NCBI GenBank assembly: GCA_041656135.1
Contig: JBBAEC010000004.1
Location: 53,460 to 117,459, forward strand
Reading direction: 5' to 3'
DNA length: 64,000 bases
Source: Balneolaceae bacterium
GTDB lineage: Bacteria > Bacteroidota > Rhodothermia > Balneolales > Balneolaceae
Part shown: one piece after another, positions 19,058 to 34,469 of the stretch
Numbering within the stretch: position 1 is the stretch's first letter
Layout: every line of letters starts with the position of its first letter
Position numbers and translations under genes: made by a program
Notes under the pieces: model-generated
What the model saw: only the letters and a program-made list of their open reading frames with translations
The model's database searches: none
What the model was told of the DNA's origin: nothing

Positions 19058-19107
19058 AAATGATTATAAAAATCCCCAATAATACCCCAACACAAAACAA
19101 AGGAGTT

Positions 19108-19977: not shown

Positions 19978-20007
19978 TTTCATCTTCATTTTATAGGAGT
20001 AATAAAA

Positions 20008-20887: not shown

Positions 20888-21949
20888 TTGAATACGAAAC
20901 TTCTGGTCAAATACTTGGCCAATGAGTGTAATAACGAAGAAATTAAAGCCATACGCGCTTGGCTCTCAGAAGACTCTGAGAACGAGAAAACTATGCGCGA
21001 CATTGAGAGAATTTGGGAAGTTTCTGCAAAAAAAGACGCCGCGGATGAGAAATTTAATACCGAGTTGGATTGGGCAGTGCTACAACATCGAATTGAAGAT
21101 AAAAACCTAATAAGTAGTACTCGTACAATCGGACGTGACACAATCCTTTCTCTAAACTCTAGCTGGGCTGTTGCTGCGCGTGTTGCTGCAATATTTATAT
21201 TAGCCGCTTTAGTTGGTACCTACACCTACAAAACTTTTTATATACAACCAGCTGTAGAAAGCGAGAATATTTTTAGAGAAATAACCATGGCAAAAGGTCA
21301 GCGTGGTGGGGTAACTCTTTCTGACGGAACTAAGGTATATTTAAATTCAGACAGTAAAATTTCTATACCAAATGTATTTGCCAACGATTTGCGTGAAGTA
21401 CATTTAGAGGGCGAGGCTTATTTTGATGTGGCTAAAAATCCAAATCGTCCATTTATTATTAAGGTAGATGGTGCTGTGGTGCAAGTTTTAGGAACGTCAT
21501 TTACAGTACGGAGCTATGCCGGCGAAGGTGCAGTACAAACGGTTGTAGAAGAAGGTGTGGTTTCGTTTAGGGCAGAAGGTAAGACATTAAATGAAGGCGT
21601 TATTTTAACAAAAGGGAAGTTGGGCCGACTCAATTTAGCCAGTAAGGAAATTGTTAAAGAAACGGTAGATGATTTAGAATTGTATTTAAGCTGGAAGGAA
21701 GGCTACTTAAAGTTTAATGAAGCAACGATGAAAGAAGTAGCGCGGCAACTAGAGCGCAAATATGACATAGAGGTTTCGTTTGCTACAAAAGAAATTGCTG
21801 ATTTACGTTTAACAGCCGAGCTAAAAAGCCGGTCTATTAATAGCGTACTACAAACAATATCAATATCACTAGGGCTGCAATACAAGCTCGATAACGATAA
21901 AGTTAAGTTCAGCAATCTAAAAGAAGGTAATCATAACAACTATGAGTAA
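20888..21949 (+). CDS. FecR family anti-sigma factor / transmembrane sensor
   Basis: TTG start. The N-terminus LLVKYLANECNNEEIKAIRAWLSEDSEN is typical, with a single TM segment (AARVAAIFILAALVG). FecR periplasmic motifs are present (LSDGTKVYLNSDS, GEAYFDV, V.VLGTSF). Confidence 0.85.
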   Translation: MNTKLLVKYLANECNNEEIKAIRAWLSEDSENEKTMRDIERIWEVSAKKDAADEKFNTELDWAVLQHRIEDKNLISSTRTIGRDTILSLNSSWAVAARVAAIFILAALVGTYTYKTFYIQPAVESENIFREITMAKGQRGGVTLSDGTKVYLNSDSKISIPNVFANDLREVHLEGEAYFDVAKNPNRPFIIKVDGAVVQVLGTSFTVRSYAGEGAVQTVVEEGVVSFRAEGKTLNEGVILTKGKLGRLNLASKEIVKETVDDLELYLSWKEGYLKFNEATMKEVARQLERKYDIEVSFATKEIADLRLTAELKSRSINSVLQTISISLGLQYKLDNDKVKFSNLKEGNHNNYE

Positions 21950-22037: not shown

Positions 22038-25000
22038 ATGAGAACAAAAGTTACCAATATGATACGGACGGCTGTGTGTTTTTTCTTGGTGGGGGCTTTA
22101 ACACTCCACCTTGGGGAAGCATCAAGTGCTAATGCACAGCTAATAACATCCTTATCTAATAAGTTACAAACCAAATATTACTCTGTTGAGTTATACACCA
22201 ATAGTATTCCTGAGCTACAGAGTGTTATTACGGTTAAAAAGAAAGATGCACTTCTTAGTGAAGTGATTAAGGATATTGCTCAAAAATCTAACTTAGGTTA
22301 TGCGATAAACTCTGAAATGGAGATTCTTAACAAGCGTATAAATGTAGACCTCAAAGATATCTCTACAGGAGATGCTCTACAATACGTGCTACTAGGAACT
22401 GGTTATGAAGCAGCTATCTCCAATACTAGAGAGCTATTGCTACTAAAAACACCTGCTGCTGAAAAACAAATTGAAGCAGTTCAAAAGAAATTAACAGGAC
22501 TTGTACAAGACGCTTCTACAGGGGAAAGTATTCCTGCTGTAAACGTATTTGTAAAAGGTACAAACATTGGAACAAGTACTGATAATAATGGTAACTTTGA
22601 ACTTACTGTGCCAGACGATGCGGAGATCTTAGTATTCCGTTTTGTAGGTTACAAGTTGTTAGAAGTGCCTATTGTTAGTGGCCAAAACTATTATGAAGTA
22701 AATTTAGTAGAAGATCTAGTGTTCTTTGAAGATTTAGTAGTTGTAGGGTACGGTACTCAGCAACGTTCTGAAGTAACTGGATCTGTAACTTCAATTAGAA
22801 CAGAAGAAATTCAAAACGTTCCAGTTTCAAGTTTTGAGAATGCACTTCAAGGTAGAATGGCTGGTGTAAACGTAGCTGAGTCTACTGGTGAGCCAGGTTC
22901 ATCGCCACAAATTCTTATCCGTGGTACTGGTTCTATTTCTGCAGGTAACGATCCATTATATGTTATAGATGGTGTTCCTGTTGCAAAAGCTTCAAGCTTG
23001 CAGCCAAGTATTAGCACACAAAGAGCTTCTTTCCAAGCGCCAAGAGCTAACCCTATGTCTACGCTAAACCCTAACGATATTGAGTCTATTGAAGTTCTTA
23101 AAGATGCTTCTTCAGCTGCAATTTATGGTTCTAGAGGTTCTAACGGTGTTATTTTAGTAACTACCAAAAAAGGACAAGCTGGTAAAACTAAAGTCAATTT
23201 TAGTGGTTACGGTGGTGTTTCTACTGTGTTTAATAAACCAGACATAATGAACGCTGAAGAGTTGATTGCTTACACCAAAGATTCGCGTAACAATACTTAT
23301 GAGCAAGATATTGCTGATGGTAAAGTACCAGCGAACCCTAATTATAACCCTAACACGAACGCAGGTCGCCCAGCTGTTGGTGATCCTGGTTATAGTGCAA
23401 ACTACTTGATTCCAGAATCAATGGTTAACTGGGATGGTACCGATACTGATTGGTTAGATCTTATATTTAGTAATGCAACTATGCAGAACTATGATTTAAG
23501 TGTTTCTGGTGGTAATGATGTATCTACTTACTATTTCTCTACAGGTTACTTAAGCCAAGAGGGTGTTTTAGATGGTTCTGAATTTGACCGTTACACAGTA
23601 AAGTTAAACTTAACACACAAGTTAAGTGACATGATTGAATTAGGCACTTCTATCAACACTGCACTTACTCAGCATGATAGATTACCAGCAAACTCACCTT
23701 ACTTTGGTACACCTCCAGGTATTGTTTACTCAGCTTTGGTGCATTCCCCAACTGTTAAGCCATACAATGCAGATGGAACATTTAACCAAACAGACAACCA
23801 ATCACATCTAGGCGGTGCTACTACCTCTGCAAGTAACCCATTAGCAATAATGAACTACATTGAAGAAGAGTTTAACCAAACTAGAATATTTGGTAATACG
23901 TACGGTCAGTTGAACATAAATGAAAATTTAAGTTTCAAAACCTTAGTTGGTTATAATATTGACAACTCTGACCAGTCTTTTTATAGTGGAACAAAGTTTT
24001 TATACCGCGACCAAACTACATCTAACCCGTTTGCACAAAGTGGTGCCGGTAAGAGCTTTAACTGGTTATGGGAAAATACAGTAAACTATTCAAAAACTTT
24101 CAATAACGATCACTCTGTAAATGCTGTTGTAGGTTATTCAGCACAAAAGCAGACAGATCAAATGAATGTTATTTATGCTAGAGGCTTCACAGATGATCAG
24201 ATTAAAACCGTAAATGGTGGTATTATTTCTGGTGGTGACGACCTAAAAGAAGAGTGGAGTATTGCTTCTGCACTTGCAAGAGTTAACTATGCATACAAGA
24301 GCAAGTATCTATTTACTGGTACTATCCGTTCAGATAGATCTTCACGTTTTGGTGCAGATGATCAAACAGGTATTTTCCCATCATTCTCGGTTGGCTGGAG
24401 ATTAACTGAAGAGTCATTTATGCCAGGTAGAGATGTATTTAATGAACTTAAATTACGTGCAAGTTATGGTGTAACTGGTAACTTTGAGATTCCAAACTAC
24501 GGCTCGATTGGTCTGTTAGGAACAGCAAACTACCCATTTGGGAATAGCGTGAACATTGGAGTTGGACCAACAACATTAGCAAACCCAAATCTAACATGGG
24601 AAACAACCTATCAGCTAGATCTTGGTGTTGACTATGCCATGTTAAATGACCGTATTTATGGTTCATTCGACTATTACCAAACAACTACAAAAGATTTACT
24701 TCTATTTGTAAACGTACCTGCCTCAACTGGATACTCTACAGCACTAACCAATATTGGTGAGGTAGAAAATAATGGAGTTGAGTTCTCCATCACTACAAGA
24801 AACCTAGTTGGTAACTTCCAATGGGCTACAGACTTTAATATTGCTAAAAACAGTAATAAAGTCACAAAGCTAGGCCCTGAAGGTGATCCAATCTTGAGTG
24901 CTGGTGCTGCAGGCAACCGCCATATTACAATGATAGGCGAAGAGATTGGTAGTTACTACGGATATCAAGTTGCAGGTATTTACCAAAACCAAGCAGAAAT

Positions 25001-25649
25001 TGACGCTGATAATGCAGCTGCACCTGGCGGTAGATATGACTTATTAGCTCCAAACCCACGCCCAGGTGATTTTAGATTTAAAGACGTTGATGGCGATGGT
25101 AAAATTGATGCAAATGATAGAACAGTTATTGGTAGCTACCACCCTGATTTCACCTATGGTATTACTAACCGCTTTAATTACAAAAACTTTGATATGAGCG
25201 TGTTTATTCAAGGTGTTCAAGGCCGTGATGTGATGAACTTAACTAGCCGTCACATGCTTAATGGAGAGGCTAACTTTAACTCTTACTCAGCAGTTAAAGA
25301 TCGTTGGATGTCAGAGTCTAACCCAGGTAACGGTGAGCACCCAAGAGCAGATCGTAACTCTGCATCACACGGAAATAACAATAGAGAGTCATCTTATCAG
25401 GTTGAAGATGGTAGTTATTTGAAAATCAAAAATGTGACTTTAGGCTATACATTGCCACAAGATAAGTTTGGCAAATATGTTAGCAGAGCTCGTATATATG
25501 TATCAGGATCTAACTTAGCAATGTTTACAAAATACATTGGCTTTAACCCAGAAGTTAGTTTACAAACAAACAGCTTAACCCCTGGTGAAGATTATGGTGC
25601 ATATCCATTATCTAGAACTATCCAGGTTGGTATAGACCTCGCATTTTAA
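22038..25649 (+). CDS. susC: SusC/RagA family TonB-dependent outer-membrane transporter with N-terminal STN signalling extension
   Basis: STN-like segment (INVDLKDISTGDALQYVLLGTGYEAAI). Carboxypeptidase-regulatory-like domain (GLVQDASTGESIPAVNVFVKGT...TDNNGNFEL). TonB box region (DLVVVGYGTQ) and plug (GRMAGV). The 1203-aa barrel ends ...IDLAF. Confidence 0.9.
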   Translation: MRTKVTNMIRTAVCFFLVGALTLHLGEASSANAQLITSLSNKLQTKYYSVELYTNSIPELQSVITVKKKDALLSEVIKDIAQKSNLGYAINSEMEILNKRINVDLKDISTGDALQYVLLGTGYEAAISNTRELLLLKTPAAEKQIEAVQKKLTGLVQDASTGESIPAVNVFVKGTNIGTSTDNNGNFELTVPDDAEILVFRFVGYKLLEVPIVSGQNYYEVNLVEDLVFFEDLVVVGYGTQQRSEVTGSVTSIRTEEIQNVPVSSFENALQGRMAGVNVAESTGEPGSSPQILIRGTGSISAGNDPLYVIDGVPVAKASSLQPSISTQRASFQAPRANPMSTLNPNDIESIEVLKDASSAAIYGSRGSNGVILVTTKKGQAGKTKVNFSGYGGVSTVFNKPDIMNAEELIAYTKDSRNNTYEQDIADGKVPANPNYNPNTNAGRPAVGDPGYSANYLIPESMVNWDGTDTDWLDLIFSNATMQNYDLSVSGGNDVSTYYFSTGYLSQEGVLDGSEFDRYTVKLNLTHKLSDMIELGTSINTALTQHDRLPANSPYFGTPPGIVYSALVHSPTVKPYNADGTFNQTDNQSHLGGATTSASNPLAIMNYIEEEFNQTRIFGNTYGQLNINENLSFKTLVGYNIDNSDQSFYSGTKFLYRDQTTSNPFAQSGAGKSFNWLWENTVNYSKTFNNDHSVNAVVGYSAQKQTDQMNVIYARGFTDDQIKTVNGGIISGGDDLKEEWSIASALARVNYAYKSKYLFTGTIRSDRSSRFGADDQTGIFPSFSVGWRLTEESFMPGRDVFNELKLRASYGVTGNFEIPNYGSIGLLGTANYPFGNSVNIGVGPTTLANPNLTWETTYQLDLGVDYAMLNDRIYGSFDYYQTTTKDLLLFVNVPASTGYSTALTNIGEVENNGVEFSITTRNLVGNFQWATDFNIAKNSNKVTKLGPEGDPILSAGAAGNRHITMIGEEIGSYYGYQVAGIYQNQAEIDADNAAAPGGRYDLLAPNPRPGDFRFKDVDGDGKIDANDRTVIGSYHPDFTYGITNRFNYKNFDMSVFIQGVQGRDVMNLTSRHMLNGEANFNSYSAVKDRWMSESNPGNGEHPRADRNSASHGNNNRESSYQVEDGSYLKIKNVTLGYTLPQDKFGKYVSRARIYVSGSNLAMFTKYIGFNPEVSLQTNSLTPGEDYGAYPLSRTIQVGIDLAF

Positions 25650-25672
25650 TAAGAACTTATAAACGGATAATA

Positions 25673-27085
25673 ATGATGAAAAAACGATTATTAATATTAC
25701 TTATTCCCATGCTGGTTCTATCCTGCGGGGAAGATTTTACGCTACTGAGTCCTATTTCTGAAAGAAATACGGAAAGTTTCTATAAGACTTCAACCGATTT
25801 TGAAGCCGCTATTGTAGGTGCTTATGACGCCCTACAAAGTAACGGTACATTCGGTGTGAATTATATTCTACTTATGGAAATGCGAGCCGATAACGGCCAA
25901 AACGCAGGTGGAGCTACAGGGTTAGCTGCATCACTACAACAGATTGATGATTTTAAAGAAATCCCAACTGCTGGTGAATTCAAAACTACTTGGGCAGAAA
26001 CCTATAAAGGGATTTCTCGCACTAACTCTATTCTATCAAGAATAGATGATATTACCTTTCCAAATGAAAATTTAAAGAAGCAAATAAAGGGTGAAGCTCT
26101 CTTTATTAGATCTTTATTATACTATCACTTATCAGTGATATTTGGAAACGTAACAGAGCAATTTGAAGAGGTAGCATCTTTAAATTTTGAAATCAACCAA
26201 GTGCCAGCAAGTACAATATTTGCTCGTATTGCTTCAGACTTAACAGAAGCTGAAGGGTTACTGCCAGCAACTACCAACAATGGTAGAATTACAAGTGGTG
26301 CCGCGGCAGCCTTGTTAGGTAGAGTATATTTGCAAGATGGTAAGAAAGCAGAAGCAGTAGCTCCTCTTCAAAGAGTAGTTGATTCTGCTAAATATGAATT
26401 AGTAGACGATTACAAAAATATTTGGGGAGTAGATAACAAACTAAATAAAGAGTCTATCTTCGAAATTCAGTATAAATCTGGAAGCAGCGAAGGAAGTTCA
26501 TATACCGACATGTACACACCAAATGGTAAAGGTGGTGGCGTTGGTGGTGGAGTTTCTCCGGTAAGCCCTACTACTGATGTAAGAGGTTTATTTGATGCTG
26601 CAGCATTACTTGGCGACGAAAGAGCCGCTGGTACTATTGCAATATCTGTAGATACTACAGCAACACCTAACGATACTACCTTTTACGTGGGTAAATTTGA
26701 TAGTAAACCTACTAGCGCTTTTGATGCAGATAATAACTGGATTGAAATTCGTTATGCGGAAGTTCTACTAAACTTGGCTGAAGCATTAGGCGAAGGCATT
26801 CCTGCGTATAATCTCATTAATGAAGTTAGAGATCGTGCTGGTTTACTTCCTATTTCAGCAGTTACTCCAGGTACTTTTGAAGAAAAATTACTTAATGAGC
26901 GACGCTTAGAATTTGCTTTCGAAAACAAGCGTTGGGCAGATCTATTACGCTTTGGCAAGGCTAAAGAAGTAATGGCAACGCACCTGAATATTACACAGGC
27001 AGAAGTTAAATTGTTATTCCCTATTCCACAGGGTGAAATTGATGTGTCTCCAGATAAAATGACACAAAATTCTGAACATAATTAA
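25673..27085 (+). CDS. susD: SusD/RagB family nutrient-binding lipoprotein
   Basis: Lipobox LVLSCG. SusD-typical segments are AYDALQ, RAxxYYxL-like FIRSLLYYHL, ERRLEFAFENKRWADLLRFG and LFPIPQGEI. Immediately downstream of susC. Confidence 0.85.
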   Translation: MMKKRLLILLIPMLVLSCGEDFTLLSPISERNTESFYKTSTDFEAAIVGAYDALQSNGTFGVNYILLMEMRADNGQNAGGATGLAASLQQIDDFKEIPTAGEFKTTWAETYKGISRTNSILSRIDDITFPNENLKKQIKGEALFIRSLLYYHLSVIFGNVTEQFEEVASLNFEINQVPASTIFARIASDLTEAEGLLPATTNNGRITSGAAAALLGRVYLQDGKKAEAVAPLQRVVDSAKYELVDDYKNIWGVDNKLNKESIFEIQYKSGSSEGSSYTDMYTPNGKGGGVGGGVSPVSPTTDVRGLFDAAALLGDERAAGTIAISVDTTATPNDTTFYVGKFDSKPTSAFDADNNWIEIRYAEVLLNLAEALGEGIPAYNLINEVRDRAGLLPISAVTPGTFEEKLLNERRLEFAFENKRWADLLRFGKAKEVMATHLNITQAEVKLLFPIPQGEIDVSPDKMTQNSEHN

Positions 27086-27117
27086 GATATAGTAGTAGTA
27101 GTAGCTCTATCTCTCTT

Positions 27118-27144
27118 GCTGGGGCGGCCTGACGGCTGCCCAGC
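27118..27144 (+). promoter_or_regulatory. GC-rich stem-loop between susD and PIG-L copy 2 (possible mRNA processing/stability or partial terminator element)
   Basis: gctggggcggcc tgac ggctgcccagc forms about 11 bp with one bulge and a 4-nt loop. It is not followed by a T-run. It is preceded by an (agt)n microsatellite at about 27091-27105. Confidence 0.35.
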
Positions 27145-27184
27145 TATTTAAACAAACCAAAAACAAGATTAAAGATTTAGTAAA

Positions 27185-28090
27185 ATGAAAAAATATTCAA
27201 TTGCACTATTAATGATGTTTTGCATTGCCACGATGTCGGTAATTGCTCAAAACAAAACTACTGATGACGATAGAATCAGGGTTATAGCTATATTTGCACA
27301 CCCTGATGACGGTGATGCTAAAATGGGTGGAACTGCTGCACTTTTAGCTGAATTAGGCTATGCAGTAAAGTTTGTTGCTATCACCAATGGCGATGCTGGT
27401 CACCAATCAGAAGGTGGTGGCGCTCTTGCTAAAAGAAGACGTGCAGAAGCTCAAGAAGCTGCTCGTAGACTAGGTATTGATGAGTACAAGGTTCTAGACA
27501 ATCATGATGGCGAACTATTGCCAGAACTACACATCCGCCAACAAGTTATCCGTGAAATTAGAACTTGGAATGCTGATATAGTATTAGGTTTACGTCCTAA
27601 CGATTACCACCCTGATCACAGATATGCTGGCGTATTAGTACAAGATGCCGCTTACTTAGTGGTAGTACCAAATGTTACCCCAGATACTCCACCTCTTACA
27701 AAAAACCCAGTATTCCTTTATATGGAAGATGGTTTCCAAAAGCCAAATCCGTTTAGCCCAGATATTGTAGTAGGTATTGATAAAGTAATTGATAAAAAAA
27801 TTGATGGCCTAGATGCTCACGAATCACAAATGTATGAGTGGTTACCATGGGTTAGTGGTAGATTAGACCAAGTTCCAAAAGACAAAAAGCTTAGAAAAGA
27901 AATGGTTAAAAGAGGTTACGTAGAAAGAGGTACCCTTTCACCAGAGAAGAAAAAAGCTTTAGAAAAATGGTATGGCAAAGCTGAAGGCTCTAAGTTTAAA
28001 TATGCAGAATCTTTCGAGATTTGCGAATATGGCAAGCAACCTACAGAAGCAGAAATTCGCGAATTATTCCCAATGTTCAGTAAAAAATAA
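27185..28090 (+). CDS. secreted PIG-L/LmbE family de-N-acetylase (copy 2)
   Basis: Signal peptide MKKYSIALLMMFCIATMSVIAQ. Motifs are IFAHPDDGD and DYHPDHRYAG. Confidence 0.8.
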   Translation: MKKYSIALLMMFCIATMSVIAQNKTTDDDRIRVIAIFAHPDDGDAKMGGTAALLAELGYAVKFVAITNGDAGHQSEGGGALAKRRRAEAQEAARRLGIDEYKVLDNHDGELLPELHIRQQVIREIRTWNADIVLGLRPNDYHPDHRYAGVLVQDAAYLVVVPNVTPDTPPLTKNPVFLYMEDGFQKPNPFSPDIVVGIDKVIDKKIDGLDAHESQMYEWLPWVSGRLDQVPKDKKLRKEMVKRGYVERGTLSPEKKKALEKWYGKAEGSKFKYAESFEICEYGKQPTEAEIRELFPMFSKK

Positions 28091-28136
28091 TTCACAGAAG
28101 CTGTGAATAAACCATTCATTATTTAAAAATAATTTC

Positions 28137-29390
28137 ATGAAACGGAACTATTTCATTGTTGGCCTAATATTACTGGTTTTCTTTGTTATTTCATTTTTGA
28201 CCAATATATTAGGCGCCCTTAACCCAGCAGTAACAAAAAGTTTTGCCCTTTCTAACACCATGGTTAGCTTTCTTCCACTTGCATTTTTTATTGCATACGG
28301 GGTAATGTCTATACCAGCAGGTTTTATGGTAGAAAAATGGGGCGGAAAAAGAATGATGGTACTAGCATTTATGCTAGCTTTTGTTGGTGCAATGTTATTT
28401 GTTCTGTTTCCAAGCTTCAATGTATTCCTCATCTCACTATTTACAATTGGTGCAGGAATGGCTGCACTACAAGTTGTGATAAACCCTCTTCTAAGAGTTT
28501 CTGGTGGGGAAGCAAACTTTGCTTTTAACTCAGTTGTAGCTCAACTCATATTTGGTTTAGCTTCTTTTCTAAGTCCACTCATGTTTTCATATTTAGCAAT
28601 AAATATTGAGCAGGGCAACGTAGATAAACCATTTATTGGCTTGATGACAGGCCTTGTGCCAGAGTCTATGCCTTGGTTGTCTGTTTACTGGGTGTTTGCT
28701 TTAATAGTTCTAATAATGGTTGTTGTAATTGCTGTAACTAAATTTCCTGCAATTACTCTACAAGACGACGAAAAAGCTGGATCTAAAGCTAGTTATCTAG
28801 AGCTATTTAAAAACAAATATGTAATTCTCTACTTCCTTGGCATCTTTGCCTATGTAGGAACTGAGCAAGGCATCTCCTTTTGGATGTCTGGTTTTTTAAG
28901 TGAATATCATGGAATTGACCCAAGTAGTGCAGGTGCAAAAGCAGTTGCTAATTTCTGGGGATTAATGACTGTTGGTGCCGTATTTGGGCTAATAGCCATG
29001 AAGCTATTTGACAGTAAGAAAGTGTTAAGATGGTTTACCCTAGCCTCAATGGTTTCGGTTTTAGCAGGACTATTTGGCGGAGCAGGAGTAGCAATTTGGG
29101 CGTTTTCAATTTCTGGATTCTTCCTTTCAGTAATGTATCCTTCAATTGTATCACTAGGCTTAAATTCGGTTGAAAAACATCATGGTTCTTTCGCAGGAAT
29201 TCTAATGACTGGTATTGCGGGTGGTGCTGTGGTTCAGCTTCTAATAGGTGGGCTAAGCGATATCTTCACTCTAAAAATTGGAATGATGTTCATCTTTGTG
29301 ACTTTAGGATATATCCTGAGTATTAGTTTCTGGGCAAAACCATTAATTAGCAATAAAACGATAGACTTCGGCAAAAAATCTGAAGCCTGA
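28137..29390 (+). CDS. MFS sugar permease, FucP/GluP (glucose-galactose/fucose:H+ symporter) family
   Basis: 12-TM profile. The N-terminus FFVISFLTNILGALNPAVTKSFALSNTMVSFLPLAFFIAYGVMSIPAG matches the FucP-family signature pattern. Confidence 0.8.
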   Translation: MKRNYFIVGLILLVFFVISFLTNILGALNPAVTKSFALSNTMVSFLPLAFFIAYGVMSIPAGFMVEKWGGKRMMVLAFMLAFVGAMLFVLFPSFNVFLISLFTIGAGMAALQVVINPLLRVSGGEANFAFNSVVAQLIFGLASFLSPLMFSYLAINIEQGNVDKPFIGLMTGLVPESMPWLSVYWVFALIVLIMVVVIAVTKFPAITLQDDEKAGSKASYLELFKNKYVILYFLGIFAYVGTEQGISFWMSGFLSEYHGIDPSSAGAKAVANFWGLMTVGAVFGLIAMKLFDSKKVLRWFTLASMVSVLAGLFGGAGVAIWAFSISGFFLSVMYPSIVSLGLNSVEKHHGSFAGILMTGIAGGAVVQLLIGGLSDIFTLKIGMMFIFVTLGYILSISFWAKPLISNKTIDFGKKSEA

Positions 29391-29425
29391 GAAATTTAAA
29401 ATTGATAGACGGTTAAACTAAGTAA

Positions 29426-30286
29426 TTGAAAAAAAGAAATCTTATAGGTATAGATTTAGGCGCAACGAATGTGAGAGTTGCGAGAGTTCTAAACCAAGAA
29501 ATCGAATCAATTTCATCGCAACCCATCATTCAGAATGAAGACCATACCAAGCTTTTAAAACAAATTATTAGCTTGATAGAAAAGGAAATAACACCAGAGG
29601 TTTCTGCTATTGGAGTGGGTGTACCCAGTGTGGTAGATGTTGAGAAAGGGATAGTGTACGATGTGCAAAATATCCCTTCTTGGAAAATGGTACCACTAAA
29701 GGACATCTTAGAAGAGCGATTTAACGTTCCCGTTTATATAAACAACGACGCTAATTGTTTTGCCCTTGGCGAGAAATATTTTGGTAAAGCCCAGAACTAC
29801 AACTCTGTAGTAGGGCTTATTATTGGAACCGGATTTGGTTCAGGCTTAATTATGAATGGGAAATTATTTTCTGGGGCTAACTGTGGCGCTGGGGAAGTAG
29901 GAATGTTGCCCTATAAAGATTCCATCTTTGAACATTACTGTTCAGGTCAGTTTTTTGAAATCCATAAAAATACTGACGGTTTAACCGCATATAGTAAAGC
30001 CCTAGAAGGTGATAAAGAAGCTCTTGAAATGTACAAGGAGTTCGGTACCCACGTAGGCAACGGTATAAAAGCGGTAATGTATGCTTTTGATCCCGAAATA
30101 ATAGTATTAGGTGGCAGTGCAAGTAAAGCTCTTGCTTTATTTGAGCCACAAATGCGTGAGGCAATGTCTGATTTTGCCTACACACAATCATTAGAGAAAG
30201 TTAAAATAAGTGTCTCAGAGCTAGACCAAGTGGCCATTTTAGGTGCTGCAGCTCTTGCTCTAGACCAACAAATTCCAACTAAATAG
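29426..30286 (+). CDS. ROK family sugar kinase (no HTH domain; candidate GlcN/GlcNAc/glucose kinase)
   Basis: TTG start. ATP-binding motif GIDLGATNVRVA, plus NDANCFALGE and GAGEVGML. At 286 aa it lacks a repressor N-domain. The CxCGxxGC zinc motif is not evident. Confidence 0.8.
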   Translation: MKKRNLIGIDLGATNVRVARVLNQEIESISSQPIIQNEDHTKLLKQIISLIEKEITPEVSAIGVGVPSVVDVEKGIVYDVQNIPSWKMVPLKDILEERFNVPVYINNDANCFALGEKYFGKAQNYNSVVGLIIGTGFGSGLIMNGKLFSGANCGAGEVGMLPYKDSIFEHYCSGQFFEIHKNTDGLTAYSKALEGDKEALEMYKEFGTHVGNGIKAVMYAFDPEIIVLGGSASKALALFEPQMREAMSDFAYTQSLEKVKISVSELDQVAILGAAALALDQQIPTK

Positions 30287-30296
30287 GAAATATGTA

Positions 30297-32984
30297 ATGT
30301 ATAAACACATCGCACAACGCATGAAACTTAGTTTGTTAGTCGTTGGATTATTAGGAATACTGATTGGCTGCGGAAATAGTGGAACTAGCACTTTAGTTCC
30401 CATTACGGTAGAAAATAATACACCGGGTACCCCACAAGTTTTTGGTATTCCAATACCGAAAGGTGAATTATTCTCTCCAGATCATGTACGCGTATTATCT
30501 TCAAGCGGCAAAGAAATTCCTTCACAAATTACAAAAGTAAGTACCTGGGCACCTGCCGATAATAGCCTTAAATGGATTTGGGTATTTTTCTTTACCGAAG
30601 AAGGAACCGACTATAAAGTTGAGTACGGTAATTCAATAACTAATGGCCGTAATTACGATCAAGTTCTTACCGTTCGTAATAACCAAAGAGAAACAGGTGA
30701 AGTTGAAGTTGATACCGGACCTCTTAGGTTTATGGTTAAGAAAGGTGAAGGTGGTGGCTTTTTTAATGCCCCAGCTGGTAGTGGCTTTTTAGATAAAGTA
30801 GAACTAGATATTGATGGCAATGGTTTTGATGAATCAGATGTTATTGCAACAGGTGAGCCTGGCCGTAGTTCATTTTTAGATTTGCTAGATGATGCGGGTT
30901 TAGATCGCTCTAAAGCTGTTGTTACTCGTACACTAAAAGAGCTTGGAAGTGGCCCTTTACATGCAATTATTAGAGTAGAAGGCGATTATCATTATAACAG
31001 AAAAGACAATAATTCTGCGCCTTTTGTAACTAGAATTCATGCTTATGCAGGCAAAAGTTTTATTAAAGTACAGCATACCTTTGTTTATACTGGAGAGCCA
31101 GATCATCATAAAAAACAAGATGGCGAGTACGCTGTTATTGCCACTAAAAATGGCAAGTTAATTGATGAAAGTGTACTATCTAAAGACCCAGGTTTTACAA
31201 AACCTAATGATAGAATTGCTGCTTTAGGACTCTCTTTAAATTATAACATGGCTAAAGAAAAGACTATTACCACAGCTTATTATGATGGTAAATGGTGGAA
31301 TGAAGATGGCAGTAAAGTTGTGCAGTCACCATTAAAAGGTAATGCTTCGGTACTACAAACAGGGCCAAATCCATCACAAATACCACCGTTAGCAAATTCA
31401 TCGCCTGATGAGAGATTAGACGGAGTGTTTACATCTACTGTATCGGTTGGCGGTAGCAAAGATATTAATGCAGAACGTGCGCCAGGTTGGTTAGATATAT
31501 CTGACAATAAATGGGGCGTAACTGTTGGTTTTAAGAGTTTCTTCGAAGAATATCCTAAAGAAATTAAAGTAGATGACGAAGCTAATAAGCTTACTGCTTA
31601 CATCTGGACTCCTTCAGTAGAGCCATTGAGCTTTGCTAAAAAGGATAACAAGAATGATAGTGGAATGATTGCGAATTTTGCGCAAGGAGTAGCTAAAACA
31701 ACTGAGATGGTATTTAGTTTCCATAAGAAAAGCACTAACGAGCAGATTGAAAAAACAGCTCTGAGCTTTATGAAAGCGCCTGTTACTCATGCCGAGCCAG
31801 AATGGTATACTAAAAGTGAAGCATTTGGTAAAATGATGGCACGTACAGATAAATATGCTACTTACGAGCGTGGATTAGACTACAAATTTAAGTGGATGAA
31901 GTTTAACCAAAGTTGGGAGCCTTGGTATGGTATGCTTAATTATGGCGATAATTTAACGTATTACTATAATTATAACTGGTCTCAGTGGACGAACAACGAG
32001 CCTGGTAACGATTACATGTGGTGGTTACAGTACATTAGAACTGGTAATCCTAAATTTCACAGAATGGCACAAGCAGCTAGTATGCACACTATGGATGTTG
32101 ATAATATCCATTGGCCGAAAGATTACCACTACATTGGTGGTGAAAACGAATCTATTTTAGCTTTCCAAGCAGAAGAACTTCCAAAAGGTTCACCTTATGT
32201 TGGTATGGGACGTCGCCATGCAGACCAACACTTTACATCGTTGCTTAGCGCACACGTTTGGGTACCAGGTTGGATTAGCTCATACTACATAGATGCTAAC
32301 CACAGAGGCTTAGAAGTAGCTAAAGAAACAGGTGATTATTACGTTCGAAGAGTATTTGGCGATCATGGTTTACGTGGGCGTAGATTATACTTGTCCGTTT
32401 GGAACCTTGCTGAAATTTATGACGCAACCAAATTGCCTAAGTATGGCGATGAGTTAAAAGAACGTGTTGACCTAATGCTCGAGCTTCAAAATCACCCAGA
32501 TCAAGGCGGTGAAGTTGTGATAAACCGCTATGGCTACTCTCAAGTATATGTGGCTAATGGATTAAGAAAATATTACCAGCTTACTGGTGATGAAAATATT
32601 AAAACAGCAGTAGTAGATAACGCTCGCCGTTTAAGAGATAATCCTGGTCTTGATCATCAGATGGAATCATACTTATCATCTATTAGTAGTATGGTACTTG
32701 GTTACGAATATTCTGGCGAAAAAAGCTTACTTGACGAAGCTGTTAAAAGAGCAAAATATCTTAAGACTGATAAATTAGCTCAAGAATTTGATTCCTATGA
32801 GAACCAAAGAATTCTAGCGGATGCTCTAGAAGAAGCGAGTAATTTCCCAGGTGATCCGGGTGCACGTCGCCCACCAATTTGGCAAATAACAAATGGCTTA
32901 AGAGTATTTGGATGGACCAGCATCTATAACGTACCTTACCTAGAATACTGGATGAACGAAGCAAACTATCCAGCTGATAAATAA
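30297..32984 (+). CDS. large lipoprotein of unknown family; candidate glycan-active enzyme of the PUL
   Basis: Lipobox LLGILIGCGNSG (Cys25); the start could also be the ATG at 30321. The 895-aa ORF runs uninterrupted. The C-terminal half is aromatic/His-rich (WEPWYGMLNYGDNLTYYYNYNWSQWTNNEPGNDYMWWLQYIRTGNPKFH; GMGRRHADQHFTSLLSAHVWVPGW). I recognise no named catalytic motif. Confidence 0.8.
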   Translation: MYKHIAQRMKLSLLVVGLLGILIGCGNSGTSTLVPITVENNTPGTPQVFGIPIPKGELFSPDHVRVLSSSGKEIPSQITKVSTWAPADNSLKWIWVFFFTEEGTDYKVEYGNSITNGRNYDQVLTVRNNQRETGEVEVDTGPLRFMVKKGEGGGFFNAPAGSGFLDKVELDIDGNGFDESDVIATGEPGRSSFLDLLDDAGLDRSKAVVTRTLKELGSGPLHAIIRVEGDYHYNRKDNNSAPFVTRIHAYAGKSFIKVQHTFVYTGEPDHHKKQDGEYAVIATKNGKLIDESVLSKDPGFTKPNDRIAALGLSLNYNMAKEKTITTAYYDGKWWNEDGSKVVQSPLKGNASVLQTGPNPSQIPPLANSSPDERLDGVFTSTVSVGGSKDINAERAPGWLDISDNKWGVTVGFKSFFEEYPKEIKVDDEANKLTAYIWTPSVEPLSFAKKDNKNDSGMIANFAQGVAKTTEMVFSFHKKSTNEQIEKTALSFMKAPVTHAEPEWYTKSEAFGKMMARTDKYATYERGLDYKFKWMKFNQSWEPWYGMLNYGDNLTYYYNYNWSQWTNNEPGNDYMWWLQYIRTGNPKFHRMAQAASMHTMDVDNIHWPKDYHYIGGENESILAFQAEELPKGSPYVGMGRRHADQHFTSLLSAHVWVPGWISSYYIDANHRGLEVAKETGDYYVRRVFGDHGLRGRRLYLSVWNLAEIYDATKLPKYGDELKERVDLMLELQNHPDQGGEVVINRYGYSQVYVANGLRKYYQLTGDENIKTAVVDNARRLRDNPGLDHQMESYLSSISSMVLGYEYSGEKSLLDEAVKRAKYLKTDKLAQEFDSYENQRILADALEEASNFPGDPGARRPPIWQITNGLRVFGWTSIYNVPYLEYWMNEANYPADK

Positions 32985-33002
32985 TTAATAAGAAATAAAT
33001 GT

Positions 33003-34469
33003 ATGCTACCTTTTAGAGGACGCTTAGGCTTTTTTGCAGGACTAATAGTATTTATAATAATGTTATTCATTCCTGCGCCTGAGGGCCTTTCTGATGCAGC
33101 ATGGAAAACAGCTGCGGTTACAATATTAATGGGAATTTGGTGGATCACAGAAGCCATTCCTATTGCTGTAACAGCGCTTGTTCCCATTATTTTATTTCCA
33201 ACTTTAGGTGTTTTTAGTATAGGTGCTGCAACTGCGCCCTATGCTAATCCACTTATTTTTCTATTCTTGGGTGGTTTTGTTATAGCCATAGCCATGGAGA
33301 AATGGAACCTCCATAAACGGATTGCAATTAGCATTGTAAGTTTTGTAGGTATAAAACCCTCCTCCATTATCATAGGGTTTATGATAGCCGCTGCATTTCT
33401 AAGCATGTGGGTTAGTAACACTGCTACCGCTATTATGATGCTACCAATAGCTATGTCTATTCTCGATCTAATTGAAAGAGAAGAAGGTGAAAGCAAAATT
33501 AATTTCGAAATAGTACTCATTCTAAGTATTGCTTACGCTTGTAATATTGGAGGGATGGGGACTCTTATAGGGACACCACCAAACGCTTTACTTGCTGGTT
33601 TTGTACTAGAAAACTATGGAATCGAAATTTCATTTTTTGACTGGATGAAAGTTGGTGTACCTATTGTTCTAGTTTCATTACCACTGATGTACATTTTGCT
33701 TACTAAAGTTGTATATCCAATTAAACTGAAAGTTTTACCAGGTGGCGAAGATCTTATAAGAAATCAACTTAAAGAATTAGGTAAAATATCAAACCAAGAA
33801 AAAAAGGTAGCGTTTGTATTTATCTCAGCTGCGCTGATGTGGATATTTAGACCACTTATAGCAGACCTAATACCAGGGCTTTCAGACGCAGGTATTGCTA
33901 TTGGCGCAGCAGCATTATTCTTTATGATTCCAGCCGATAAGATTGATAATTCGGCTTTACTAGTATGGTCTGATACTGTAAAACTACCATGGGGTGTTCT
34001 CTTATTATTTGGTGGAGGCTTAAGCATGGCATCTGCTATTAGTGGCACAGGCTTAGCCAGTTGGATTGGCACTGGAATTGGAGCTTTAAATACCTGGCCA
34101 ATCTTACTCATTATTGTAATTGTTATTACACTTATTGTCTTTTTAACTGAAATGACAAGTAATACTGCTTCAACCGCTGCATTCTTGCCTATATTGGCTT
34201 CTGTAGCAATTGGTTTAGGCGAGAATCCTTTATTATTTGCAATCCCCGTAGTATTTGGTGCAAGCTGCGCATTTATGCTACCTGTGGCAACACCGCCCAA
34301 TGCTATTGTGTACGGAAGTGGAAAGATTACGATACCTGAAATGTCGAAAGCTGGTCTATGGCTAAACCTTACGTTCATTTTAGTACTAACTGTAGCCTCA
34401 TACACCATCATTAGTTGGGTATTCGGTATAGAACTCGGCGTACTACCAGATTGGGCACTTAAAAATTAG
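33003..34469 (+). CDS. DASS/SLC13 family sodium-coupled anion (di/tricarboxylate or sulfate) symporter
   Basis: Polytopic membrane protein with the two hairpin SNT motifs (WVSNTATAIMMLPI and TSNTASTAAFLPI) and PPNA repeats (GTPPNAL, ATPPNAIV). Confidence 0.85.
   Translation: MLPFRGRLGFFAGLIVFIIMLFIPAPEGLSDAAWKTAAVTILMGIWWITEAIPIAVTALVPIILFPTLGVFSIGAATAPYANPLIFLFLGGFVIAIAMEKWNLHKRIAISIVSFVGIKPSSIIIGFMIAAAFLSMWVSNTATAIMMLPIAMSILDLIEREEGESKINFEIVLILSIAYACNIGGMGTLIGTPPNALLAGFVLENYGIEISFFDWMKVGVPIVLVSLPLMYILLTKVVYPIKLKVLPGGEDLIRNQLKELGKISNQEKKVAFVFISAALMWIFRPLIADLIPGLSDAGIAIGAAALFFMIPADKIDNSALLVWSDTVKLPWGVLLLFGGGLSMASAISGTGLASWIGTGIGALNTWPILLIIVIVITLIVFLTEMTSNTASTAAFLPILASVAIGLGENPLLFAIPVVFGASCAFMLPVATPPNAIVYGSGKITIPEMSKAGLWLNLTFILVLTVASYTIISWVFGIELGVLPDWALKN

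What the first reader, a model, noticed from the sequence alone, without database searches (positions are those of the whole stretch)
30297..32984. 895-aa lipoprotein of unrecognised family as candidate novel glycan depolymerase
Seen: an uninterrupted 895-codon ORF with lipobox LIGC (Cys25). It is the last gene of the PUL and lies 11 nt after the ROK kinase gene. The N-terminal half looks beta-rich. The C-terminal half (residues ~540-690, nt ~31914-32370) is very rich in Trp/Tyr/His. It has motif-like blocks: WEPWYGMLNYGDN, WSQWTNNEPGNDYMWWLQYIRTGNPKFH, HTMDVDNIHWP and GMGRRHADQHFTSLLSAHVWVPGW. I could not match any of these to a named catalytic signature.

Inference: the layout, a beta-sandwich-like N-region followed by an aromatic-rich helical region, is what many (alpha/alpha)-toroid glycoside hydrolases and polysaccharide lyases look like. 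I have a vague recollection that YetA-like / exo-lyase-type uncharacterised proteins show similar 'YGD...W.NNE...L.Y.RTG' blocks, but I cannot confirm this. It is the only plausible depolymerase in the locus.
Basis: inference. Interest (0 to 1): 0.65.

Follow-up and report, generated by a model that had tools for sequence, protein, structure and literature searches.

The report
Diverged PcRGLX-like enzyme, amino-sugar locus
The 895-residue lipoprotein is not an orphan: it is a very distant relative of a fungal pectin lyase, but its clade lacks that enzyme's key tyrosine and always sits in a gene cluster for taking up glucosamine plus a four-carbon diacid, so it probably cleaves a substrate nobody has identified yet.

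Summary
The ORF, lipobox and motifs are real. The family is recognised: all three Pfam PcRGLX domains score above cut-off, and the only full-length PDB match by sequence or fold is the PL26 exo-rhamnogalacturonan lyase PcRGLX (15-17% identity, TM 0.61-0.64).

It is unlikely to be a pectin lyase:
- The Tyr replaced by Phe in the PcRGLX substrate complex is invariant in 48/48 close PcRGLX relatives.
- In this clade that loop is 17 residues shorter and has no Tyr or His.
- The window holds no pectin genes.

The protein belongs to a tight orthologous clade found in Bacteroidota, Rhodothermota, KSB1 and Calditrichota. In 83 loci it co-occurs with SusC/SusD, an exported PIG-L deacetylase, an MFS sugar permease, a ROK kinase, and either a DASS or a DctA C4-dicarboxylate carrier. 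No other enzyme family is conserved.

Best reading: a periplasmic enzyme that acts after de-N-acylation and releases glucosamine plus a C4-dicarboxylate. The most specific candidate substrate is glucosaminyl-malate, the core of bacillithiol. This is inference only. I could not decide between hydrolase and lyase chemistry. It is a new variant of a known kind, of moderate to high interest.

The parts
18305..19057 (+). NagB, glucosamine-6-phosphate deaminase (cytoplasmic)
   Evidence: Pfam Glucosamine_iso 78 bits. NCBIfam TIGR00502 nagB 265.6 bits, above the 236.9 cut-off.
19060..19977 (+). PIG-L/LmbE-family de-N-acylase A, with a signal peptide
   Evidence: Pfam PIG-L 90.9 bits. N-terminus ...MMKKILTLMVAAFLVMPSVLFAQPE. 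Best NCBIfam hits are BshB1 and BshB2, both below cut-off. Followed by a 14-bp terminator-like hairpin at 20004-20035.
20189..20821 (+). ECF sigma factor
   Evidence: Pfam Sigma70_r2, r4_2 and ECF. Present in 41 of 83 related loci.
20888..21949 (+). FecR-type anti-sigma factor
   Evidence: Pfam FecR and FecR_C. Present in 45 of 83 loci.
22038..25649 (+). SusC-like TonB-dependent transporter with an N-terminal extension
   Evidence: Pfam CarbopepD_reg_2, Plug and TonB_dep_Rec_b-barrel. Present in 57 of 83 loci.
25673..27085 (+). SusD-like lipoprotein
   Evidence: Pfam SusD-like_3 and SusD_RagB. Present in 59 of 83 loci.
27185..28090 (+). PIG-L/LmbE-family de-N-acylase B, with a signal peptide
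   Evidence: Pfam PIG-L 91.2 bits. Signal peptide MKKYSIALLMMFCIATMSVIAQNK. Present in 57 of 83 loci. In the PDB it matches BshB-like 2ixd and the diacetylchitobiose deacetylases equally, at about 66 bits.
28137..29390 (+). MFS sugar permease (GluP/FucP/NagP-like)
   Evidence: Pfam MFS_1. NCBIfam gluP, fucP and NagP, all below cut-off. Present in 63 of 83 loci.
29426..30286 (+). ROK-family sugar kinase (cytoplasmic)
   Evidence: Pfam ROK 167.8 bits. Present in 61 of 83 loci.
30297..32984 (+). The finding: exported PcRGLX/YetA-like three-domain protein, 895 aa
   Evidence: Pfam PF19501, PF21345 and PF21346, all above gathering cut-off. PDB phmmer match to PcRGLX at 1e-17, profile match at 2.2e-26. 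AlphaFold pTM 0.83, Foldseek match to PcRGLX at TM 0.61-0.64.
30297..30371 (+). Signal peptide with lipobox LIGC (Cys25); alternative start Met9 at nt 30321
   Evidence: All 31 aligned homologues have a signal peptide, but only about 9 have a lipobox Cys.
30387..30626 (+). N-terminal RIFT-barrel-like domain (about residues 31-110)
   Evidence: Pfam PcRGLX_1st at residues 46-93. Strands 32-110 at pLDDT above 90.
30669..31736 (+). Central beta-sandwich domain (about residues 125-480)
   Evidence: Pfam PcRGLX_2nd. Beta strands in the model. R246, H260, Q354 and K421 are conserved across the superfamily.
31632..31688 (+). Short clade-specific loop (residues 446-464, SFAKKDNKNDSGMIANFAQG) in place of the Tyr-bearing TYED loop of PcRGLX
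   Evidence: The 5xqo substrate complex differs from the apo and product entries by Tyr437 to Phe. That Tyr is invariant in 48/48 PcRGLX-proper relatives. The target loop is 17 residues shorter and has no Tyr or His.
31794..32966 (+). C-terminal (alpha/alpha) toroid domain (about residues 500-890)
   Evidence: Pfam PcRGLX_3rd at residues 495-606. Helices 521-888 in the model.
31914..32117 (+). Superfamily core motifs: WYGxxxYGD (D551), WxNNE (E568), RTG (R581), HxxDxD (H597, D600, D602). Presumed catalytic or ligand-binding centre.
   Evidence: Aligned to PcRGLX residues 527-604. Conserved in 70-95% of 66 distant relatives.
33003..34469 (+). DASS-family Na+-coupled di/tricarboxylate symporter, the true last gene of the locus
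   Evidence: Pfam Na_sulph_symp 272.7 bits. NCBIfam dass 326.5 bits, above the 198.6 cut-off. Best PDB matches are NaDC3, NaDC1, NaCT and VcINDY. Present in 48 of 83 loci. Thirteen other loci carry an SDF-family carrier; the one scanned (L082) passes the DctA cut-off.

Best explanation
The gene encodes an exported enzyme, lipid-anchored in this organism and soluble in the periplasm in most relatives. It belongs to a distinct orthologous clade of the PcRGLX/YetA-like superfamily: RIFT barrel, beta-sandwich and (alpha/alpha) toroid.

It is the only bond-cleaving enzyme of a small locus conserved across phyla. The proposed pathway is:
1. SusC/SusD bring an N-acylated amino-sugar conjugate into the periplasm.
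2. Exported PIG-L amidohydrolase(s) remove the N-acyl group.
3. The PcRGLX-like enzyme splits the resulting glucosaminide into a free hexosamine and an acidic aglycone of C4-dicarboxylate type.
4. The MFS permease, ROK kinase and NagB take the sugar to fructose-6-phosphate.
5. The DASS carrier (DctA in other lineages) imports the acid.

Shown: family membership, export signals, the conserved gene set, and loss of the PL26 Tyr loop.

Inferred: the order of the steps, the nature of the two products, and the substrate. The best single substrate candidate is alpha-glucosaminyl-L-malate from bacillithiol or GlcNAc-malate. It could be cleaved by hydrolysis to malate or by beta-elimination to fumarate. 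I give that specific substrate about 0.2-0.25.
For: Family:
- Three Pfam PcRGLX domains score above cut-off.
- PcRGLX is the only PDB match, by sequence (1e-17; profile 2.2e-26) and by fold (TM 0.61-0.64, E about 1e-24).
- The acidic/His/Arg core is kept: D551, E568, R581, H597, D600, D602 and R670 are conserved in 70-95% of 66 distant relatives. D551, E568, R581, H597 and D602 are identical in the aligned PcRGLX stretch (residues 357-604), D600 is Glu there, and R670 lies outside it. This suggests a live active site.

Distinct clade:
- In a library clustered at 50% identity there are only three full-length representatives, at 37-50% identity. Below them similarity drops to about 30%.

Context, from 83 loci in Bacteroidota, Rhodothermota, KSB1 and Calditrichota:
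- MFS in 63, ROK in 61, SusC/SusD in 57-59.
- PIG-L type B in 57, plus 8 'big' and 11 type A.
- DASS in 48 or SDF in 13.
- All-against-all clustering of the other ORFs found no further family conserved across phyla.

Dicarboxylate link:
- The SDF carrier of a Pedobacter locus passes the NCBIfam DctA cut-off (542.6 against 513).
- The window DASS is closest to Na+/dicarboxylate carriers.
- Two unrelated C4-dicarboxylate carrier families therefore occupy the same cluster slot.

Compartments:
- The target and all PIG-L proteins have signal peptides. ROK and NagB have none visible at the N-terminus (inspection).
- No NagA was identified inside the locus (18305-34469); an amidohydrolase about 4 kb upstream on the minus strand (13214-14521) has a weak NagA_N hit. 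No GH18/GH20, GH88/GH105 or pectin genes were found among the window ORFs of 150 aa or more that were scanned.

Bacillithiol derivatives are reported as probably the most widespread bacterial thiols, with Bacteroidetes discussed in the paper (PMC6282198, listed). This fits the wide habitat range of the locus.
Against: - No biochemical data exist for any clade member, and no paper found describes cleavage of glucosaminyl-malate.
- The PIG-L partner does not single out GlcNAc-malate. It matches BshB-like 2ixd and the archaeal-type diacetylchitobiose deacetylases equally.
- BshB Arg109, proposed from docking to contact the substrate (PMC4101496), is Tyr in the window protein. Arg53 is kept, but it is generic to the family.
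- About a quarter of loci, including complete ones such as Flagellimonas, have no dicarboxylate carrier next to the cluster.
- SusC/SusD with ECF/anti-sigma control usually serves oligomeric glycans, not metabolites of about 400 Da.
- The AlphaFold model has low confidence in the most conserved loops (540-551, 565-568, 603-652), so I could not inspect a pocket.
- I could not decide between hydrolase and lyase chemistry.
Confidence: 0.5

Rival explanations
1. It is an exo-beta-D-glucosaminidase in a Thermococcus-type chitin route. Imported chito-oligosaccharides are deacetylated at the non-reducing end by the periplasmic PIG-L (a Dac analogue). The PcRGLX-like enzyme, acting as an analogue of GlmA or CsxA, then releases GlcN for MFS, ROK and NagB.
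For: - PIG-L B matches diacetylchitobiose deacetylases (8bgn, 3we7, 3wl4) as well as it matches BshB-like 2ixd.
- The locus lacks NagA but has NagB and a ROK kinase, as the deacetylate-first route requires.
- Only one glycosidic-bond enzyme is needed for a homopolymer.
- Some distant superfamily members are annotated as GH127-like hydrolases.
Against: - It does not explain a C4-dicarboxylate carrier, from either of two unrelated families, in 61 of 83 loci.
- No further gene family, chitinase-type or other, is conserved across phyla with the cluster. This was a clustering test, not a direct search for GH18, GH19 or GH20.
- No member of this fold family is known to be a glucosaminidase.
Confidence: 0.15
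2. It is a true exo-acting polysaccharide lyase on an acidic amino-sugar glycan, for example heparosan-like GlcNAc-alpha-1,4-GlcA, plant or fungal GIPC head groups (GlcN(Ac)-GlcA-inositol), or teichuronic acids. It would use beta-elimination at a uronate, as PcRGLX does.
For: - The only characterised relative is a lyase.
- Many invariant Arg, His and Tyr residues in the toroid (R640, R670, R695, R696, R744, H653, H669, H690, Y698, Y745) fit an anionic substrate.
- The amino-sugar catabolic genes fit a HexNAc-containing polymer.
Against: - The PL26 Tyr-bearing loop is absent.
- No GH88/GH105 unsaturated uronyl hydrolase or Kdu/Dhu genes for the unsaturated product were found.
- DctA and DASS carriers are not the usual importers of monocarboxylic sugar acids (established knowledge).
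Confidence: 0.12
3. It is what NCBI and UniRef call it: an exo-rhamnogalacturonan lyase (PL26) that degrades pectic RG-I.
For: The database names of homologues, the Pfam domain names, and PcRGLX as the best PDB match.
Against: - Identity is only 15-17%. HMMER aligns only residues 380-606 with any strength.
- The Tyr mutated in the substrate complex, invariant in 48/48 close PcRGLX relatives, has no counterpart.
- The window holds no pectin-related genes.
- The conserved partners are amino-sugar genes.
Confidence: 0.02
4. It is a non-catalytic periplasmic binding or scaffold protein that kept the fold but lost activity.
For: The PL26 Tyr is lost. The model has low confidence in the conserved loops.
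Against: - Within the clade there are about 150 invariant positions in 31 sequences down to 51% identity. They include a dense Asp/Glu/His/Arg cluster shared with the whole superfamily.
- The locus would then have no bond-cleaving enzyme at all.
Confidence: 0.03

Closest known systems
PcRGLX, exo-rhamnogalacturonan lyase of Penicillium chrysogenum (CAZy PL26; PDB 5xq3, 5xqg, 5xqj, 5xqo)
   Same: It has the same three-domain architecture and is the only full-length structural match (TM 0.61-0.64). It shares the core motifs WYGxLDYGD, WxNxE, RTG and HTxxVD at the start of the toroid.
   Different: Identity is 15-17%. The Tyr437-bearing TYED loop is replaced by a loop 17 residues shorter with no Tyr or His. 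PcRGLX is a fungal secreted pectinase, whereas this is a bacterial periplasmic protein in an amino-sugar locus. About 25 polar or aromatic residues are invariant in the clade and rare (under 10%) in distant relatives.
PcRGLX/YetA-like superfamily (Pfam PF19501, PF21345, PF21346), mostly uncharacterised
   Same: Member by Pfam gathering thresholds. About 2,100 representatives at 50% clustering match at E<=1e-3.
   Different: The target clade is sharply separated, with next relatives at about 30% identity. Other subfamilies differ in both context and annotation. The Omnitrophica subfamily sits in an EPS-biosynthesis cluster, gives weak GH127/GH88 Pfam co-hits, and some of its members are named 'GH127' by NCBI. 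I did not test B. subtilis YetA itself.
Thermococcus/Pyrococcus chitin route (Dac PIG-L deacetylase plus GlmA exo-beta-glucosaminidase plus GlcN kinase plus GlcN-6-P deaminase)
   Same: The logic is the same: deacetylate first, release GlcN, phosphorylate, deaminate, with no NagA. The PIG-L partner matches Dac structures.
   Different: GlmA (GH35-like) and bacterial CsxA (GH2) are unrelated folds (established knowledge). The archaeal route has no dicarboxylate carrier, and this one is periplasmic and fed by SusC/SusD.
Bacillithiol enzymes BshB and Bca (PIG-L family GlcNAc-malate deacetylase and bacillithiol-conjugate amidase)
   Same: The locus PIG-L proteins have BshB1 as their best NCBIfam model (112.8 and 74.7 bits). 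The substrate chemistry (GlcNAc or GlcN alpha-linked to L-malate) would yield exactly an amino sugar plus a C4-dicarboxylate.
   Different: Scores are far below the equivalog cut-offs (182.5 and 195.25). The locus enzymes are exported whereas BshB and Bca are cytoplasmic biosynthetic or detoxifying enzymes. BshB Arg109 is not conserved. No enzyme that cleaves the GlcN-malate glycosidic bond turned up in my literature searches.

Membership tests
PcRGLX/YetA-like superfamily (Pfam) | All three domain models (PF19501 RIFT barrel, PF21345 beta-sandwich, PF21346 alpha/alpha toroid) score above the gathering cut-off | tested here: met
   25.3 against 22.1, 56.7 against 23.5, and 37.3 against 23.8 bits. 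The matches cover only parts of the models.
PcRGLX/YetA-like superfamily (Pfam) | Three-domain fold superposable on PcRGLX | tested here: met
   AlphaFold pTM 0.83. Foldseek matches 5xqo, 5xqg and 5xq3 at TM 0.61-0.64, E about 1e-24. The next hits are partial, at TM 0.29 or less.
PcRGLX/YetA-like superfamily (Pfam) | Conserved core residues at the start of the toroid (YGD Asp, NxE Glu, RTG Arg, HxxDxD) | tested here: met
   D551, E568, R581, H597, D600 and D602 are invariant in the clade and present in 70-95% of 66 distant relatives. They are matched in PcRGLX, except that D600 is Glu there.
CAZy PL26 exo-rhamnogalacturonan lyase | Tyr of the (I/S)(T/S)YED loop. It is replaced by Phe in the substrate complex 5xqo, so I infer it is catalytic. 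| tested here: not met
   Tyr is present in 48/48 PcRGLX-proper relatives at 40-74% identity. The target loop, residues 446-464, is 17 residues shorter with no Tyr or His. The clade consensus is DSGMxxNFAQG. Caveat: the catalytic role is inferred from the mutant entry, because the primary paper was not available.
CAZy PL26 exo-rhamnogalacturonan lyase | Clear sequence similarity to the founding member over the catalytic module | tested here: inconclusive
   HMMER aligns residues 380-606 at 59-81 bits, and only weakly elsewhere. Structural identity is 15-17%. I could not run dbCAN or consult CAZy.
CAZy PL26 exo-rhamnogalacturonan lyase | [quoted passage not shown] | not testable with these tools
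   This needs an enzyme assay. The activity is described in PMC13501991.
CAZy PL26 exo-rhamnogalacturonan lyase | Pectin-degrading genomic context (supporting, not defining) | tested here: not met
   No pectin genes in the window ORFs of 150 aa or more that were scanned. No further gene family, pectin-related or other, is conserved across phyla in the 83 related loci.
Bacteroidota-type polysaccharide utilisation locus | Adjacent SusC and SusD pair, co-directional with the degradative enzyme and a regulator | tested here: met
   SusC at 22038-25649, SusD at 25673-27085, ECF sigma and FecR upstream. The arrangement recurs in 57-59 of 83 loci.
Bacterial lipoprotein (SPII) | Signal peptide ending in a lipobox with an invariant Cys | tested here: met
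   LIGC, with Cys25. This is not a clade feature: only about 9 of 31 homologues have a lipobox, and the others have SPI-type signal peptides.
GH127/GH88-type six-hairpin glycosidases | A match to PF07944 or PF07470 | tested here: not met
   The target shows no such hit at E<=1. Only distant Omnitrophica relatives show weak co-hits.
Known exo-beta-D-glucosaminidases (GH2 CsxA, GH35-like GlmA) | A GH2 or GH35 catalytic domain | tested here: not met
   The target hits no GH2 or GH35 Pfam family. Any glucosaminidase role would be analogous, not homologous.

The most novel reading that the evidence does not exclude
The locus is a scavenging system for bacillithiol-type metabolites (bacillithiol, its disulfide, GlcNAc-malate). 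Exported PIG-L amidases would strip the N-acyl group (acetyl or cysteinyl) to give alpha-glucosaminyl-L-malate. The PcRGLX-like enzyme would then be the first known glucosaminyl-malate-cleaving enzyme. A lyase fold might be reused here to eliminate fumarate from the malyl ether, which is the same C(O-glycosyl)-CH-COO- chemistry as uronate lyases. It could instead simply hydrolyse the bond to malate. Glucosamine would enter through the MFS permease, ROK kinase and NagB, and the diacid through DASS or DctA. This would be the first catabolic pathway for a major bacterial low-molecular-weight thiol, and a SusC/SusD system dedicated to a small metabolite.
Probability: 0.2. Interest if true: 0.85.

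Novelty: new variant of a known kind. Interest (0 to 1): 0.6.

Why it matters
PL26 and the PcRGLX/YetA-like superfamily rest on a single characterised enzyme, yet thousands of bacterial homologues inherit the name 'exo-rhamnogalacturonan lyase family protein'. This clade shows that the name is probably wrong for at least one widespread subfamily.

It also defines a compact locus of about eight genes, found in marine, hypersaline, freshwater and soil Bacteroidota and in three other phyla. The substrate is unknown but tightly constrained: an N-acylated glucosaminide that yields a C4-dicarboxylate.

Finding that substrate would add a new activity to a CAZy-related fold. If it proves to be the bacillithiol core, it would reveal how a major bacterial thiol is recycled in nature. 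The hypothesis can be tested directly with a few purified proteins and cultured strains such as Gracilimonas tropica DSM 19535, Daejeonella oryzae DSM 19973, Pedobacter caeni DSM 16990 and Salinibacter ruber.

Tried and rejected
- NCBIfam scan of the target gave no family.
- A literature search for 'PcRGLX' found no papers. The primary structure paper (Kunishige 2018) is not held. I therefore inferred the catalytic residue indirectly, from the Y-to-F difference between PDB entries and its conservation.
- Searches for a PUL with PIG-L and glucosamine, for bacillithiol catabolism and for a GlcN-malate lyase found nothing relevant.
- I tried to separate the bacillithiol route from the chitobiose route through the PIG-L partner. 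PDB scores are equal for BshB-like and Dac enzymes. BshB Arg53 is kept but generic, and Arg109 is not kept. The result is inconclusive.
- A metagenome scan with a distant relative (P0139), meant to show an outgroup context, returned a single fragment. I used a protein search plus contig look-up instead.
- The promoter scan found fewer sites than the shuffled controls. The terminator scan was barely above them, apart from the hairpin at 20004-20035.
- I looked for extra conserved genes hinting at the substrate. The only findings were lineage-restricted neighbours: a Redoxin/TlpA-like CxxC protein after the gene in six Sediminibacterium loci, and DUF2911-TPR in five loci. These are suggestive at most.
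- I did not analyse the pocket.
- The reading as a genuine pectin lyase was rejected (see rival explanations).

Full report
**Observation**

The ORF 30297..32984 (+) is real: 895 codons plus a stop.
- The lipobox LIGC places Cys at residue 25.
- The four motif blocks are at residues 540-552, 561-588, 597-607 and 636-659.
- W+Y+H makes up 21.9% of residues 540-690, against 8.2% in the rest of the protein.

Three details need correcting.
- The gap after the ROK gene is 10 nt.
- Met9 (nt 30321) is a plausible alternative start.
- The gene is not the last of the locus. A co-directional DASS transporter gene begins 18 nt downstream.

**Family**

The protein does not belong to an unrecognised family.
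- Pfam finds PcRGLX_1st (RIFT barrel), PcRGLX_2nd (beta-sandwich) and PcRGLX_3rd (alpha/alpha toroid), all above their gathering scores, though each match covers only part of the model.
- The only PDB sequence match is PcRGLX, the PL26 exo-rhamnogalacturonan lyase of Penicillium chrysogenum (1e-17, or 2.2e-26 with a clade profile).
- An AlphaFold model (pLDDT 77.8, pTM 0.83) matches PcRGLX over its full length (TM 0.61-0.64, 15-17% identity, E about 1e-24). No other structure matches beyond partial hits.
- NCBI and UniRef call homologues 'exo-rhamnogalacturonan lyase family protein'.

**Is it a PL26 lyase?**

Probably not.
- The PDB entry with bound substrate (5xqo) differs from the apo and product entries by one residue in the aligned region: Tyr437 to Phe in ...LEIT[Y/F]EDWEPGF.... 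This is the usual signature of a substrate-trapping mutation of a catalytic residue.
- That Tyr, in an (I/S)(T/S)YED motif, is invariant in all 48 PcRGLX-proper relatives (40-74% identity) that cover it.
- The loop varies greatly across the superfamily. In the target clade it is 17 residues shorter, strongly conserved (DSGMxxNFAQG) and contains no Tyr or His.
- The Asp/Glu/His/Arg core at the start of the toroid is kept across the superfamily (D551, E568, R581, H597, D600, D602, R670). The aligned PcRGLX stretch matches it at the first six positions, with Glu at D600. The protein therefore looks like an active enzyme with a changed mechanism or specificity.
- About 25 further polar or aromatic residues are invariant only in this clade, among them R696, Y698, R744, Y745, H787, E790 and R869.
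- I could not read the primary PcRGLX paper, so the catalytic role of Tyr437 is an inference.

**The clade**

- A search of 1.84 billion representatives at 50% clustering finds only three full-length representatives at 37-50% identity. Below them similarity drops to about 30%, in a large and mixed superfamily: 2,137 hits at E<=1e-3.
- One neighbouring subfamily, from Omnitrophica, gives weak GH127/GH88 Pfam co-hits. NCBI names some of its members GH127, and it sits in an exopolysaccharide-biosynthesis cluster.
- Function clearly varies within the superfamily.

**Genomic context**

The window locus runs from 18305 to 34469:
- NagB;
- exported PIG-L A, followed by a hairpin;
- ECF sigma factor and FecR anti-sigma factor;
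- SusC and SusD;
- exported PIG-L B;
- MFS permease;
- ROK kinase;
- the target;
- DASS carrier.

The flanks are housekeeping genes such as GluRS, a PBP4-type peptidase and the dcw cluster. There are no pectin or chitin genes.

I collected 83 related loci. They come from Balneolaceae, Salinibacter/Salinivenus, Rhodocaloribacter, Sediminibacterium, Pedobacter, Daejeonella, Fulvivirga, Cyclobacteriaceae, KSB1 and Caldithrix. Flagellimonas, looked up separately, has the same gene order. Within 10 kb of the PcRGLX-like gene these loci carry:

| Partner | Loci (of 83) |
|---|---|
| MFS permease | 63 |
| ROK kinase | 61 |
| SusC / SusD | 57 / 59 |
| PIG-L type B | 57 |
| PIG-L 'big' (832 aa) | 8 |
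| PIG-L type A | 11 |
| DASS carrier | 48 |
| SDF carrier | 13 |

- Many loci are cut off by contig ends, so these are lower bounds.
- Clustering of all remaining ORFs found no other family conserved across phyla. The target is therefore the only candidate bond-cleaving enzyme.
- The SDF carrier of a Pedobacter locus passes the NCBIfam cut-off for the C4-dicarboxylate transporter DctA.
- The window DASS is closest to the Na+/dicarboxylate carriers NaDC3, NaDC1, NaCT and VcINDY.
- Two unrelated C4-dicarboxylate carrier families occupy the same slot. This is the strongest clue that a diacid is a product alongside the amino sugar.

**Compartments and proposed pathway**

- The target has a signal peptide in all 31 aligned homologues, with a lipobox in only about 9.
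- All PIG-L proteins have signal peptides. ROK and NagB have none visible at the N-terminus (inspection).
- No NagA was identified inside the locus; an amidohydrolase about 4 kb upstream on the minus strand (13214-14521) has a weak NagA_N hit.

The most economical scheme is as follows.
1. SusC/SusD import the substrate.
2. It is de-N-acylated in the periplasm.
3. The PcRGLX-like enzyme cleaves it.
4. Glucosamine enters through the MFS permease and is processed by ROK and NagB.
5. The diacid enters through DASS or DctA.

Steps 1, 2, 4 and 5 are inferred from family assignments and localisation signals. Step 3 is inferred by elimination.

**Substrate**

- The one widespread natural compound I can name that yields exactly an amino sugar plus a C4-dicarboxylate is alpha-glucosaminyl-L-malate. 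It is the core of bacillithiol and of its precursor GlcNAc-malate.
- Bacillithiol derivatives are reported as probably the most widespread bacterial thiols, with Bacteroidetes discussed in the paper (PMC6282198).
- PIG-L enzymes include the GlcNAc-malate deacetylase BshB and the bacillithiol-conjugate amidase Bca (PMC4101496).
- The locus PIG-L proteins have BshB1 as their best NCBIfam model, but far below the cut-off.
- Chemically, the malyl ether C(O-glycosyl)-CH2-COO- mimics the C4-C5-C6 unit of a uronate. A lyase-derived fold could therefore eliminate fumarate. Loss of the PL26 Tyr, and the GH-like relatives, make simple hydrolysis to malate equally possible.

Against this reading:
- the PIG-L partner matches archaeal-type diacetylchitobiose deacetylases equally well;
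- BshB Arg109 is not conserved;
- some complete loci have no adjacent dicarboxylate carrier;
- SusC/SusD systems usually take oligomers;
- no literature supports the idea.

I give this specific substrate about 0.2-0.25. I give the general scheme, in which a glucosaminide is split into GlcN and a C4-diacid-type aglycone, about 0.5.

**Rivals**

| Reading | Probability | Main point |
|---|---|---|
| Exo-beta-glucosaminidase in a Thermococcus-like chitin route | about 0.15 | Leaves the diacid carrier unexplained |
| True exo-lyase on a HexNAc/uronate glycan | about 0.12 | No genes for unsaturated uronates, and no catalytic Tyr |
| Genuine RG lyase | about 0.02 | |
| Non-catalytic protein | about 0.03 | |

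**Verdict**

The fold, the YetA/exo-lyase link and the 'only depolymerase' point are right. 'Unrecognised family' and 'last gene' are wrong.
- This is a new variant of a known kind: a distinct, widespread and uncharacterised subfamily of the PcRGLX/YetA-like superfamily, with a conserved and unusual pathway context.
- The current database name is probably an over-annotation.
- Interest is 0.6. The decisive experiments are simple enzyme assays on a short list of compounds.

Noticed in passing
PDB entries 5xqo versus 5xq3, 5xqg and 5xqj (alignments): The substrate-bound PcRGLX entry differs from the others by Tyr437 to Phe (SEQRES numbering) in LEIT[Y/F]EDWEPGF. This Tyr is invariant in 48/48 close relatives, so it is probably the PL26 catalytic residue.
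   Followed up: yes
window 30321 (Met9 of the target): An in-frame ATG 24 nt downstream of the annotated start gives a textbook 17-residue lipoprotein signal peptide, MKLSLLVVGLLGILIGC. The true start may be here.
   Followed up: partly
window 20004-20035 (+): A 14-bp stem terminator-like hairpin followed by a T-run sits right after PIG-L A. It would split NagB and PIG-L A into a transcription unit separate from the ECF-to-DASS genes.
   Followed up: no
L050, L053, L055, L056, L057, L061 (for example L057:12662-13972): In six Sediminibacterium loci the gene after the PcRGLX-like gene encodes a signal-peptide Redoxin/TlpA-like protein with a CxxC motif (WCPNC). A periplasmic thiol-disulfide oxidoreductase would fit a disulfide-containing substrate, but this could simply be genus-level synteny.
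   Followed up: partly
L002:18804-21302 and the Pedobacter loci L072, L074, L075, L079, L082: In Sphingobacteriaceae the small PIG-L is replaced by an 832-residue exported protein. It has an N-terminal PIG-L domain (its best NCBIfam model is the mycothiol-conjugate amidase Mca, far below cut-off) and about 600 residues with no Pfam match.
   Followed up: partly
L002:6268-8943 and L002:10001-12691 (Daejeonella oryzae): There are two paralogues of the clade (48% and 51% identical to the target) in one locus, separated by a PIG-L gene.
   Followed up: partly
window 13214-17583 (-): Three tandem amidohydrolase-family genes (435, 486 and 557 aa). One has a NagA_N-like composite domain. The second and third ORFs overlap by about 80 nt. 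They lie just upstream of the locus on the opposite strand, and any link to it is unknown.
   Followed up: no
L041, L045, L058, L060, L077 (for example L060:3237-4406): A DUF2911 plus TPR protein with a signal peptide recurs near the cluster in Salinibacter/Salinivenus, Cyclobacteriaceae and Agaribacillus loci. Its function is unknown.
   Followed up: partly
window 41732-42496 (-) and 2311-4233 (+): A bacterial TANGO2-family protein (255 bits), and a 640-residue protein with a weak GCS2 (glutamate-cysteine ligase family 2) match plus CBS domains. Both are unrelated to the locus. The latter may bear on thiol metabolism in this organism.
   Followed up: no
L086:10001-13312 (groundwater metagenome, Omnitrophica-like): A 1,103-residue distant PcRGLX-like protein with a weak GH127 co-hit sits inside an exopolysaccharide-biosynthesis and exosortase cluster, between two polysaccharide deacetylase genes. 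This subfamily may process EPS.
   Followed up: no
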